Below are positions 10,925 through 60,146 of a stretch of DNA of 64,000 nt, piece after piece. Under the pieces are notes generated by a model. It saw only the letters and a list, made by a program, of their open reading frames with translations, did no database searches and had not been told where the DNA came from. Every line of letters starts with the position of its first letter. The first letter of the stretch is position 1. The translations under genes and the position numbers were made by a program. Source of the stretch: Leucoraja ocellata (lineage: Eukaryota); assembly GCA_036785375.1 (NCBI GenBank), contig JAWMAR010000471.1, positions 1,302,001 through 1,366,000 on the forward strand. Direction: 5' to 3'.

Positions 10925-12130
10925 TTTCCGTGATGCCGTTGACCTATTCAGGTGTAGGTTCTGAACCAAGCGCCGCCACGGTTGCAGTTATACCCGGCGT
11001 TAACCTCTGGAGCGCCAATTAGCTTGCGACATCGCTGTTGTTATTTTCAATGTTCAGAACAAACAAATGAATGCAGTCATTTTCATGCAATTTTAATTAA
11101 TCTCGTAGGATGCATTGAAAGTGCTGACGCCTGCTTAGGATCACATAGAAGTCAGTACTTTTTTGAAAAATTGACTGGATGGGTCATGTGATTTAAGTTG
11201 ATAATTTACTAAATCGTTACTAATGATATTGTTGGTTGGTTGGATGAACTTTCAAAGCCATTCGATTACGTGAAAGGACTTACTCAAAATAAACGCATGA
11301 CGTTATATGCACAGCACGAACGTTGGCAATACGTTGGCTGTAGGATAGCAAAAAGGTTTTTCATTGCAAAGGGTTTGTAGTCGAGCGAAACGGCGACGAG
11401 AATTTCAATCACAGAACGATATCTTGCAATTGGGAGTGCAGATCACAATTTTAAAATGTGTAGGCGACCCACATTCTGGAACCTCTCCCCTTTATATCGA
11501 CAAGGATTCCACCGATGTAAGCTACTAAAACACTGTATTCCTCTATTACCGTTCGCGAGATTGATCCCTGGGATAGCGGGACTTTCATATGAGTAAAGAT
11601 TGGAAAGACTAGACTTGTATTGACTGGAGTTTAGAAGGATGAGGGGTATCTTCTAGAAACATATAAAATGATACAAGGACTGGCCAAGCTAGATGCAGGA
11701 AGAATGTTCCCAATGTTGGGCGAGTCCAGAACCAGGGGCCACAGTCTTAGAATAAAGGGGTGGCCATTTAAGACTGAGGTGAGAAAAAACTTGTTCACGC
11801 AGAGAGTTGTGAATCTGTGGAATTCCCTGTTTGACCTGCGTGGGTTTTCTCCGGGATCTTCGGCTTCCCCCCAATGACCCTCGGGTTTGTATGTTAATTG
11901 ACTTGGTATAATTGTTAACTATCGTTAGTGTGCGGAGGATAGCGTTCGTCTGCGGAGATCGCTGCTCGGCTTGGTGGGCTGAAGGACCTGTTTCGGCGCT
12001 AAATACCAATTGGTGATGTGGGGAGGAAGGATGGATGCATAGACAAACGGAAACTCTCCCAACAGAAGGATGCGCCTCCCCCCCCCCCCCCCTCCCACCA
12101 TTCGCCCGAGAAAACACCCATGCTGACGAA

Positions 12131-12150
12131 CACGTGACGTCACAGGAAGT
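12131..12150 (+). promoter_or_regulatory. E-box/CRE/ETS composite upstream of V1
   Basis: CACGTGACGTCACAGGAAGT contains CACGTG, a perfect CRE TGACGTCA (12135-12142) and GGAAGT. CRE and ETS are retained in the paralogous V3 flank (56521-56536). CRE elements are typical of TCR V promoters. Confidence 0.55.
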
Positions 12151-12598
12151 AGCAAATAACACACCCAGCGGGTCATCACTCGCGTTAAAAGACTGTCACT
12201 CACTTCATTTAAATTTGGTTTAGTTCTGTTTTGAGATGCTGCGCGGAATAACTCCCTTCGGCGCACCGAGTCCGCGCCCACTAACATCAGCCTACAACAC
12301 ACTAGGGATAATTCACTATTTTTTCCAAGCCGTCTTTGGAGTGTGGGAGTAAACCGGAGCGCCCGGAGAACAACACACGAAGGTGAGAGGGAGAAGGGGC
12401 AAAGACTCCGTCAAGACAACACCTGTGGTCAGGTTCAAACCCGGGTCTCTGGCGCAGCAATTCTCCCGCTGCGCCCAAGGTAGATACTTCCTCAGCTTTC
12501 GGCACGCACCCCGCCTTCAATCGCCTCAAACCGTCCGATCTTTACAGATTACGGATGAGCTACTGCAGAAGTCTGCTACCGAGGTTAACCGCGAGACC

Positions 12599-13038
12599 AT
12601 GTTCTGCCACATTCTCATGATAATATGCACATTGTTCGGTAAGTTTCGCGTTGCCTTTTCTCTTTTGTGTTTTATGCGATGTTTGCAACTTCCAAGTCAA
12701 TGCTGTACTCAATTCACCCACGTTTAATTTCCAGGGGCTATTTGGGGAGAGTCGGTAACGCAGCCGCTGGCCGAGTTAAGTGTGGCTGAAGGAGAGAGAG
12801 TGAAAATACAGTGCAGCTACACCACAGAACACGACGACCCCGGCCTCTATTGGTACCGACAGCAAGCGGATCAGGCGCCGGAGTTTATTTTGTATCGGGA
12901 TAACAGCGAAAATGAAGAAGCGGATTTTGCAAAGGAGAGGTTCGCGGCTGATCAGGCCAACGCTGGAGGGAATATCCCATTGACAATCACACAAGCAACG
13001 CTGCAGGACTCCGGCCTGTATCTCTGCGCGCTGAGTCC
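12599..13038 (+). CDS. TCR alpha/delta V segment V1, apparently functional (leader 12599-12638; V exon 12735-13038)
   Basis: Leader MFCHILMIICTLF + G|GTAAG, 96-nt intron, acceptor TTTCCAG. V domain ESVTQ...IQCSY...WYRQ...PEFILY...DSGLYLCALS, open reading frame. Confidence 0.93.
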
Positions 13039-13077
13039 CACAGTGTTTCAACATTCAGCTGTCGCTCAACAAAAACC
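13039..13077 (+). other. 23-bp-spacer recombination signal sequence of V1
   Basis: CACAGTG + 23 nt + ACAAAAACC (consensus heptamer and nonamer). Confidence 0.96.
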
Positions 13078-57497: not shown

Positions 57498-57615
57498 TAA
57501 AGAAACAAAACACAACCGCAAACCGCAACACTCTAGTTCCAACAAACGGCTCCTCCTCGTTAGGTATCAACCTCAGCTGTGCAAGATCTTTGGTTGCCAG
57601 AAACGAGTCTAGGCG

Positions 57616-58177
57616 AAACACAAATCACGGACGCTGGCTGTGACAGGTGCTCGTTCTCTCCAGCCAATCTAGCTCATGCATTCTGGTCTTGCCCCAAACT
57701 TGTTAACTACAGGGCAGTGGTTATTAATACCATCAGTGAAGTCCTTGGGATGACAGCGAGACCTTGCCCGCTTGTAGCTGTATTTGGTGTAACTGATAAA
57801 ACCTTGGGTTTAAATACAACCCAGTCTGATATCATTACATGTACATCACTTTTGACCCGTAGGAGAATCTTGCTGGTCTGGAAATCAGCTACTCCTCCAT
57901 CTTCCGCTGCTTGGCTGGAAGACGTCGTGTTTTTTTAAGGTTAGAAAAGATGAAAAAGTTTTATTTGAAATGGGAACCCTTTTTTATCATAGTTTGAGGG
58001 TCTAAAAGAACTACCTATTGACTGAGGGGACTTGACAGTAAGTGGGGATCCGTCTTTATTCTGTTTTGTTACTTTATTATTGTTAAAAAGTGCATTTGAT
58101 TTTGTGATATATTTGGATTGTGAAAAAATAAGCTGCCAAGGGGTGTTTAGGGAGGGTGGGTTGGGTTATTTTGTTTA

Positions 58178-58238
<61 letters not shown>

Positions 58239-58341
58239 TATAAAAAACAAAATGGAGGAAAATGTAATGCCATACATCAGATGTACTGTGAATTTTTTTC
58301 CCTCCAATTAAAAACTATTAATTAAAAAAAAACACAAATCA
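57616..58341 (+). mobile_element. 5'-truncated L1-like insertion with 12-bp target-site duplication
   Basis: CDRC...NLAHAFWSCP zinc-knuckle C-terminus and A tail. AAACACAAATCA at 57616-57627 and 58330-58341. The empty site is at about 13518 in the V1 copy. Confidence 0.85.
58177..58238 (+). repeat. (ATT)n microsatellite
   Basis: About 20 ATT units. Confidence 0.95.
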
Positions 58342-60146
58342 TCCCTCGTCTCACCTCAAACTCCAGCACAGCAAATGTCACACACAGTCCCGCTTTATTT
58401 TTAACTAAACTAAACATCCCATATTATGGTCACCACCTCCTAATGGCTCCTTTACCTTGAGTTTCCTTTATCAAATCCGGTTCACCACACAAAACTAAAT
58501 CCAGAATTGCTTTCTCCCTAGTAGCGTCCAATATAAACTGCTCTAAGAATCCATCATGGAGGCACTCCGCAAATTCCCTTTCTCGCGGTCCAGTACCAAC
58601 CCGATTTTCCCTGTCTACCTGCATTTTGATATCTCCCATAACCACGGTAGCATTACATGTACGACATGCCAATTTAAACTCTTGATTCAACTTGCGCCCT
58701 ATAATCAGGCAATCTATCCCTCTTTAGTTTCGCATCAGAGTCCAACTCGAATTCTCTCCTCCATCATAACTCACCCACATCAGCCTAACAGCGGTCCGAT
58801 AGCATAGTTTAGCTATTGACAGACATAAAACTAGCAGGAGGCTAGTTAAATTTAGTAATACCATGATCTAACCGAGTTGTTACATGTTGGTGGAGTCGGA
58901 CAATGTCCAGTCCGGTTCCTTCTCTGACCTTGGCTTTGGAGATGGTCCAGAGGGGGTTTACAAGAATAGCTCGGGGAATGATTGGGTGCCATTATGATGA
59001 GCGTTTGAAACCATTGGTCCGCCACTCGCTGGAGGTTAAAAGGTTGTGACCTTATTGAAACTTACAGAATAATGAAATACATAGATAGAGTGGATATGGA
59101 AATGATTTTGCCACTGGTGGGAGAGTCTAGGCCAAGAGATCATAGCCTCAGAATTAAAGGGCGCTCTTTTAAAAAGGAGGCGAGGAGGAACATATGTAGT
59201 CAAAGGGTGGAACTCATTGCCATTGAAGGCAGTGGAGGCCACATCAGTGAATATTCTTAGATTATTGATTAGAACGGGTGTCAAGGGTTATGTGGAAACA
59301 TAGAAACTTAGGACCAAAGAAAATGCGTGCAGGAGTAGGCCATTCCGCCTTTCGATCCAGTACCACCATTCAATATGATCGTGGCTGATCATCCAAAATC
59401 AGTACCCCGTTCCTGCTTTTTCCCCATATCGCTAGATTCCGTTCGCCCGAAGAGTGATATCTAACTCTCTTGAAAACATTCCACAGAATCACAACTATCC
59501 GGGTGAAAGAGTGTTTCCTTCATCTCAATCCTAAATGGCCGAACACTTATTCTTAAACTGTGACCCCTGGTTCTGGTAGCCCCCTACACCGAGAACATTC
59601 TACTCCTGTAACTTGAGAACGTGAACTTTTACAACGAGAAATGTCCTTCTCCATGAAAAACAATGAAGCGTTAGGCATTTCGGTCAATATCGTGTCCGTA
59701 CTCTCTCTTTCTATTTAATCTCACACGTTTTCCATTTTATTTCGCTCTACCTAACTTAGCTCTTGGAAATATCCGCAGCTACCTACTGGCAGATAACTTA
59801 GATTTACACCATTCCTTTTTTTTCACTTAAATGTTTATTGATTTTTCAGAAATATATACAAAAACAGTGCAACACCACCACCTTAAATAAAACAAAATAA
59901 GAAAAACAACAAACAAAATAAAAAATAAGTAGATAGGGGATAAAAAGACAAGAAGTAAATAAATAGAAAATTGGAATAAGACCGTGTGGTTCACTTTCCA
60001 AATTTAAAAAAAAAACATTACATTGATTAGTTATCTGGAGATAATTCAATATTCACACAAACATACCATCTGGGTCTATTTAACACAATCTTCCCATATC
60101 TAGCTCGGCATTTACCTAATTGGTGTCATGGCTCAAATAAACGTTC

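What the first reader, a model, noticed from the sequence alone, without database searches (positions are those of the whole stretch)
11830..59790. V segment and GPCR 5' flank were co-duplicated as one cassette
Seen: 11830-13580 (V1) aligns with 56020-58385 (V3). The downstream 14600-16390 resembles 58900-59790 and 23040-24570, and runs into the GPCR upstream region (ACTCCTGTAACTT.AGAACGTGAA...TTCGCTCTA.CTAACTT at about 16200, 24375 and 59602). The V3 copy breaks off before exon 1. Inference: the duplication unit was V-CR1-GPCR, so birth-and-death of the two families is physically coupled.
Basis: partly seen in the sequence, partly recalled or inferred. Interest (0 to 1): 0.7.

Follow-up and report, generated by a model that had tools for sequence, protein, structure and literature searches.

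The report
TCR-V copied with neighbouring receptor flank
In a skate-like genome, a T-cell-receptor gene segment was copied together with the upstream DNA of a neighbouring orphan receptor gene, one of many joint copies in a megabase where the two families alternate, and the counts fit mere closeness, so a functional tie is unlikely.

Summary
Observation confirmed. V1 (11830-13575) and V3 (56017-58387) are collinear paralogues, 86-91% identical. Each is followed by the same nested pair of decayed CR1 pieces and a locus-specific GPR139-like 5' flank, found only in this window. A third flank copy (22865-24710) has a GPCR but no V. V3's flank ends 233 bp before the start codon, at a younger LINE tail that runs into an assembly gap, so the receptor was lost, hidden or never copied. 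Part of the shared block is a dispersed repeat, and the young CR1 beside V1 is not shared.

Along the scaffold (400-1390 kb), 66 V segments and 61 GPCR loci alternate, and V+GPCR blocks were duplicated repeatedly. Co-carriage equals the random-placement expectation (23 of 31 vs 23.2; 18 of 31 vs 18.2), GPCRs often duplicate alone, and within-clade trees do not correlate. Births are loosely coupled by proximity; losses appear independent. This is a larger-scale version of the olfactory genes among mammalian TRAV. The scan noted the interleaving before on other DNA of this genome.

The parts
11830..13575 (+). V1 block (SINE-like remnants, promoter region, leader, V exon, RSS, 3' flank); paralogue of 56017-58387
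12599..13077 (+). V1, TCR alpha/delta-type V segment: leader 12599-12638, V exon 12735-13038 open, heptamer CACAGTG 13039, 23-bp spacer, nonamer ACAAAAACC to 13077
   Evidence: Pfam V-set E=1e-19; best TCR hit in PDB is TRDV3 E=6e-16, ranked below three antibody constructs; coordinates
13182..13503 (-). young CR1 3' piece present in the V1 copy only
   Evidence: V3 has a different insertion at 57602-58330
14603..15040 (+). block A: decayed CR1-like 3' piece, dispersed family, cut by an inverted second piece at the same junction in all three copies
   Evidence: CR1 label from likeness to the window's RT-bearing repeat and recall
15753..16200 (-). block B: decayed inverted CR1 piece; an insertion at about 15060-15750 is V1-specific
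16201..16530 (+). block C: locus-specific 5' flank of the G1-type GPCR
   Evidence: 4 matches genome-wide, all in the window
16629..19792 (+). G1, intact two-exon GPR139-like class A GPCR (exon 1 16629-16698, exon 2 18876-19792, 328 aa)
22865..24710 (+). second flank copy (U, A, B, C) with no V upstream; 22865-23037 is shared with V3's flank only
25469..28878 (+). G2: two copies of exon 1 (ATG 25567 and 27873) separated by a CR1 RT insertion; intron runs into a 200-N stretch
29079..34689 (+). G3: about 97.5% copy of G1 that begins at the N stretch; 5 one-base deletions in exon 2; likely an uncollapsed, error-rich haplotype or contig overlap
   Evidence: 44 of 49 indels in three blocks are single-base; 2 of 13 exon-2 substitutions are transitions
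35742..38040 (+). G4: about 98% copy of G2's 5' part plus exon 2, which stops aligning at 38040 (truncated)
56017..58387 (+). V3 block; leader 57018-57057, V exon 57155-57458 open, 23-RSS 57459-57497
   Evidence: near-exact contigs in a second sample and close copies in another organism
58734..59796 (+). third flank copy (U, A, B, truncated C), ends 233 bp short of the GPCR start codon
59813..60146 (-). 3' end of a dispersed LINE (about 90-93% to other copies) that cuts the flank and runs into a 200-N stretch
   Evidence: 551 candidates; one of five fetched copies carries an RT ORF

Best explanation
V1 and V3 are two copies of one duplicated segment that held a TCR V gene, a nested pair of old CR1 pieces and the 5' flank of a GPR139-like receptor gene, and it likely held the receptor too until a LINE insertion and a later deletion or assembly gap removed it from the V3 copy. 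The wider locus has V segments and receptor genes about 7 kb apart, while duplications are typically about 20 kb long, so both families ride along passively. Unequal crossover between the abundant repeats is the inferred, untested mechanism. Each partner is then kept or lost on its own.
For: Collinear same-strand blocks of similar divergence: V parts 86-91%, flank C 85-88% among all three copies. The nested A|B junction occurs 3 times in 1.264 Mb, at the three flanks. The flank is unique to the window. The break is followed by a younger dispersed LINE tail, and a contig from another organism crosses 59796 by 45 letters with 2 differences in 292. Region: 66 V and 61 GPCR, median spacing 6.7 kb, order no different from shuffled (66 switches vs 63). 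40 of 48 V with a >=85% relative have a matching GPCR neighbour, 0 of 18 others. 8 of 38 chains under 95% within one gap-free stretch carry V and GPCR on both sides (9.2 expected). Co-carriage 23 of 31 vs 23.2 expected, and 18 of 31 vs 18.2.
Against: No GPCR exon follows V3, and no further close copy of G1's exon 1/intron exists in the assembly, so inclusion of the receptor in this event is inferred. The V-to-flank spacer does not align. The random-placement test has little power (many spans have expectation 1.0), its pairs share events, and 14 of 31 V pairs end at gaps. V-only chains are rarer than random (3 of 201 vs 36.7 expected) and GPCR-only chains commoner (126 vs 64.8), which is not pure randomness, though long GPCR exons and redundant pairs bias this count.
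Confidence: 0.75

Rival explanations
1. The duplication ended inside the GPCR 5' flank, so only V plus about 3 kb of downstream DNA was copied and the receptor never was.
For: No exon or intron homology after 59796 or in the next 230 kb; no extra exon-1 copy elsewhere.
Against: The break sits at a LINE tail that is closer to its own family (90-93%) than the cassette copies are to each other (85-91%), then a gap; this suggests later damage.
Confidence: 0.3
2. V and receptor form a selected unit (shared regulation or V-linked receptor expression in T cells), so they are gained and lost together.
For: V clades and GPCR clades co-localise, for example about ten V-V-GPCR repeats at 995-1245 kb; 62 of 66 V hit intervals and 47 of 61 GPCR exon 2 are open; V-only duplications are rare.
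Against: Co-carriage equals chance; Mantel r=0.03, 0.18, -0.40 with p=0.39, 0.29, 0.99 (n=10, 6, 8); relative orientation varies between blocks; 400 kb of another cluster holds 23 GPCR hits and 2 V; here two of three copies lack one partner.
Confidence: 0.07
3. The shared downstream segments are independent insertions of dispersed repeats, so V and flank were not copied together.
For: Block A has 5652 genome-wide candidates, some closer than V3's copy; block B has over 580 hits in 1.264 Mb.
Against: Same 5' start, same nested junction and a unique flank C in all three copies, in the same order and strand behind V1 and V3.
Confidence: 0.03
4. V1 and V3 are two alleles placed in tandem by the assembly.
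For: Many >=95% duplicates on this scaffold start at 200-N gaps; G1/G3 and G2/G4 look like this.
Against: V1/V3 are only 86-91% alike with different insertions. A run of another organism holds both a V3-like contig (3 differences in 168) and a more distant one (17 in 178).
Confidence: 0.04

Closest known systems
Olfactory receptor genes among mammalian TRAV genes (human OR10G2, OR4E2; mouse Olfr1507-1509; sheep, opossum)
   Same: Class A GPCR genes interspersed with TRA/TRD V segments (PMC4574546 and PMC2275272, passages read).
   Different: Two or three OR genes at the 5' edge in mammals; here about 60 two-exon GPR139-like genes alternate with about 66 V over 1 Mb and are carried in repeated duplications.
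Homology-unit expansion of TRAV/TRDV (dromedary TRDV1 with TRAV22-25)
   Same: Multi-gene blocks duplicate as units and passengers expand with them (PMC8069558, passages read).
   Different: Units there hold V genes of several subgroups; here they include a non-immune-type receptor family.
Trypsinogen genes within the TRB locus
   Same: An unrelated multigene family embedded in a TCR locus (PMC2275272, passage read).
   Different: Clustered at the ends and between TRBV and TRBC, not alternating gene by gene.
GPR139 / chondrichthyan 'probable GPR139' family
   Same: Best PDB hit is human GPR139 (E=1e-8); 1533 relatives at E<=1e-20, the named ones among the best 120 all from sharks and rays.
   Different: Only a distant likeness to human GPR139; these belong to a large paralogous expansion, ligand and tissue unknown.

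Membership tests
Segmental co-duplication (homology unit) of V + GPCR, this event | Collinear, same-strand homology of V and downstream non-coding DNA | tested here: met
   the spacer itself does not align
Segmental co-duplication (homology unit) of V + GPCR, this event | Shared DNA is locus-specific or carries shared insertion junctions | tested here: met
   block A alone is dispersed
Segmental co-duplication (homology unit) of V + GPCR, this event | GPCR coding exons present in both copies | tested here: not met
   none after V3 in the assembly; a LINE tail and a gap follow
Coupled birth-and-death | Co-carriage above the proximity expectation | tested here: not met
   23 of 31 vs 23.2 and 18 of 31 vs 18.2; low power
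Coupled birth-and-death | Congruent V and GPCR trees | tested here: inconclusive
   clade-level co-location by eye (no support values read); three within-clade Mantel tests null
TCR alpha/delta V segment | Split leader, open V-set exon, 23-spacer RSS | tested here: met
   V1 and V3
TCR alpha/delta V segment | Linked J array and C gene | tested here: inconclusive
   137 FGxG J-like hits at 1396-1596 kb, across two gaps and partly duplicated; no C exon found by pattern or among the best 150 of 618 C1-set candidates
TCR alpha/delta V segment | Use in rearranged transcripts | not testable with these tools
   no RNA holder listed
GPR139 orthologue | Close sequence orthology, single copy | tested here: not met
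   weak match (E=1e-8); 4333 first-look candidates in the genome
GPR139 orthologue | Activation by L-Trp/L-Phe | not testable with these tools
   needs an assay

The most novel reading that the evidence does not exclude
Expansion of an orphan GPCR array drives part of the skate TCR V repertoire: duplications are centred on receptor genes, V segments in this megabase are almost never copied without one, and because the array lies between the main V cluster and the J cluster, each V-J rearrangement would delete or invert a clone-specific set of receptors.
Probability: 0.2. Interest if true: 0.7.

Novelty: new variant of a known kind. Interest (0 to 1): 0.4.

Why it matters
It shows that V-segment copy number in a cartilaginous-fish TCR locus can change as a by-product of duplication in an unrelated receptor family, at some twenty times the scale of the mammalian olfactory-gene case. 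That matters for reading selection into V expansions and for annotating these loci. It also gives a place to test whether the orphan shark-and-ray receptor family has a role in T cells. The single cassette in this window is an ordinary partial segmental duplication.

Tried and rejected
1. Block A as proof of common origin by identity alone: rejected, dispersed copies are closer; only its junctions count.
2. G1/G3 and G2/G4 as recent GPCR-only duplications: not relied on, likely uncollapsed haplotypes.
3. Within-clade Mantel tests: null; V exons are short and near-identical, so power is low.
4. Homology of the V-to-flank spacer: none above shuffles.
5. A missing V3-linked GPCR elsewhere in the assembly: none found (that search is not exhaustive).
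6. Long-range transfer of a V+GPCR block to C128: only coding and repeat matches, no collinear flanks.
7. Expression: no RNA holder listed.
8. Run X1 showed no cover of V3's unique parts; a filter leaves records out, so this is no evidence.
9. No reads were laid over the LINE tail up to the gap, so what lies behind it stays open.
10. The automatic extension of the V1/V3 pair ran leftwards through repeats; boundaries were taken instead.
11. Literature: 8 searches listed no paper on GPR139-like genes in a chondrichthyan TCR locus. PMC12227049 (abstract, section 6, term search of text and 2 supplementary files) and PMC10322711 (term search only) have no 'GPR' hit. Subscription papers and unseen supplements could hold it.

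Full report
Setting. The window is G000:C471:1302001-1366000. It holds three V-set exons, GPCR genes and many CR1-type repeats. The GPCR's best named relatives are 'probable G-protein coupled receptor 139' of skates, rays and sharks (top hit Leucoraja, 91%); the best solved relative is human GPR139 at E=1e-8. G1 is an intact two-exon gene, 16629-16698 and 18876-19792. V1 and V3 have a split leader, an open exon and a 23-spacer RSS. V3 is V1's only close relative among the 150 of 400 candidates scored (78% aa, next 45%).

Observation. After masking high-copy repeats, V1's block matches V3's block in three collinear pieces, and the downstream blocks match at 58906-59796 and 23041-24710. Flank 16195-16530 has four matches in the genome, all in the window. 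V3's copy stops 233 bp before the GPCR start codon.

What is and is not shared. Block A (14603-15040) is a decayed dispersed repeat; the 39 other scored copies of 5652 candidates are 79-81% alike, closer than V3's copy. Its value lies in its junctions: the same 5' start and the same point where an inverted second piece cuts it, found at the three flanks only. The young CR1 at 13182-13503 and the insertion near 15060-15750 are V1-specific; V3 has its own insertion. The spacer between V and block A does not align, and part of it reads N. V parts are 86-91% identical and flank C is 85-88% identical among all three copies, so the three cassettes are of about one age. One has V and GPCR (V1-G1), one GPCR only (G2/G4), one V and flank only (V3).

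The V3 break. Behind 59796 lies the 3' end of a dispersed LINE, about 90-93% like its family, then a 200-N stretch. A second sample of the same organism has near-exact contigs on V3, and a contig of another organism crosses 59796 by 45 letters with 2 differences, so the cassette and its break are real. Whether a receptor follows is open: none is found downstream or elsewhere.

Assembly caution. G3 begins at an N stretch and differs from G1 by about 2.5% substitutions plus 49 indels, 44 of them single-base; G4 mirrors G2. I read these as uncollapsed haplotypes (about 70% likely). Several other >=95% duplicates on the scaffold also start at gaps. The 446-584 kb vs 629-743 kb pair is probably real, since two further contigs hold the same genes.

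The flanking megabase. I fetched C471:332001-1596000 in full (assembled). From 400 to 1390 kb there are 66 V and 61 GPCR loci after dropping V hits under 220 bp and GPCR hits under 600 bp. Median spacing is 6.7 kb and the order is no different from shuffled. A dense V array lies at 0-400 kb; no GPCR was seen in 75 kb sampled there or at 332-400 kb. 137 J-like motifs lie at 1396-1596 kb, across gaps. V+GPCR blocks recur: GPCR+V units at 500-770 kb and V-V-GPCR units at 995-1245 kb. Eight of 38 chains under 95% identity inside single gap-free stretches carry both genes, so co-duplication is not an assembly artefact.

Is it coupling? 40 of 48 V with a close relative have a matching GPCR neighbour, but only 24 of 50 GPCRs have a matching V. 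Duplicated spans have a median of 21-22 kb. Observed co-carriage equals random placement of the same spans: 23 of 31 vs 23.2 and 18 of 31 vs 18.2. These pairs share events, 14 of the 31 V pairs end at gaps, and 6 of the 8 misses do. Within-clade Mantel tests are null. Against pure randomness, V-only chains are scarce (3 of 201 vs 36.7) and GPCR-only chains common (126 vs 64.8), a biased count that hints at GPCR-centred duplication. Another cluster (C128, 400 kb sampled) has 23 GPCR hits and 2 V, so the family expands without V.

Mechanism. Shown: joint copying of V, old repeats and GPCR flank; repeated V+GPCR blocks; unequal gene content of the copies. Inferred: unequal crossover between repeats, original inclusion of the receptor in V3's copy, and passive carriage. 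Untested: expression, rearrangement, any function.

Known analogues. OR genes among mammalian TRAV (PMC4574546, PMC2275272; passages), trypsinogens in TRB (PMC2275272; passage), TRAV/TRDV homology units (PMC8069558; passages). PMC12227049 (abstract, section 6, term searches incl. supplements) describes scattered TCR-type V exons in the elasmobranch antigen-receptor complex without naming GPCRs. Eight searches found no account of this arrangement. Earlier scan notes on other parts of this genome report the interleaving; I had reached that reading first and count them as leads only.

Verdict. A real, partial co-duplication within an unusual interleaved locus; coupling by proximity, not shown to be functional. 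New variant of a known kind, interest 0.4.

Noticed in passing
window 10833-11306 and 41818-42290: The exon-1 regions of the minus-strand GPCR (exon 2 at 8143-9054) and of G5 are 88% alike in inverted orientation while their exon 2 are only 73% alike: exon 1 and promoter seem to be shuffled or converted between paralogues.
   Followed up: partly
window 25469-28878: G2 has two copies of exon 1 on either side of a CR1 RT insertion, a duplication of about 470 bp.
   Followed up: partly
window 51097-51452: V2 is open but its heptamer reads CACGGCG, away from consensus.
   Followed up: no
window 45049-47858: Three tandem units of about 980 bp, each a unique piece plus a CR1 3' end, 92-97% alike.
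   Followed up: no
G000:C471:1396000-1596000 (L004-L010, L021-L033): J-like array of 137 motif hits in both orientations, with a 95-97% inverted duplicate around a gap; many have a non-standard nonamer region (AGTTATTGA); no TRD D-J-C or C exon was found by my patterns.
   Followed up: partly
G000:C128:4553002-4553262 and 4773179-4783942 (L128, L150, L151): A C1-set exon and two V exons with RSS-like ends sit inside another large GPR139-like cluster, so the family may accompany antigen-receptor genes more widely.
   Followed up: partly
G000:C471:1-400000: Dense V array with about 1.7 kb spacing and mirror-image halves around a gap near 114 kb, possibly both haplotypes.
   Followed up: no
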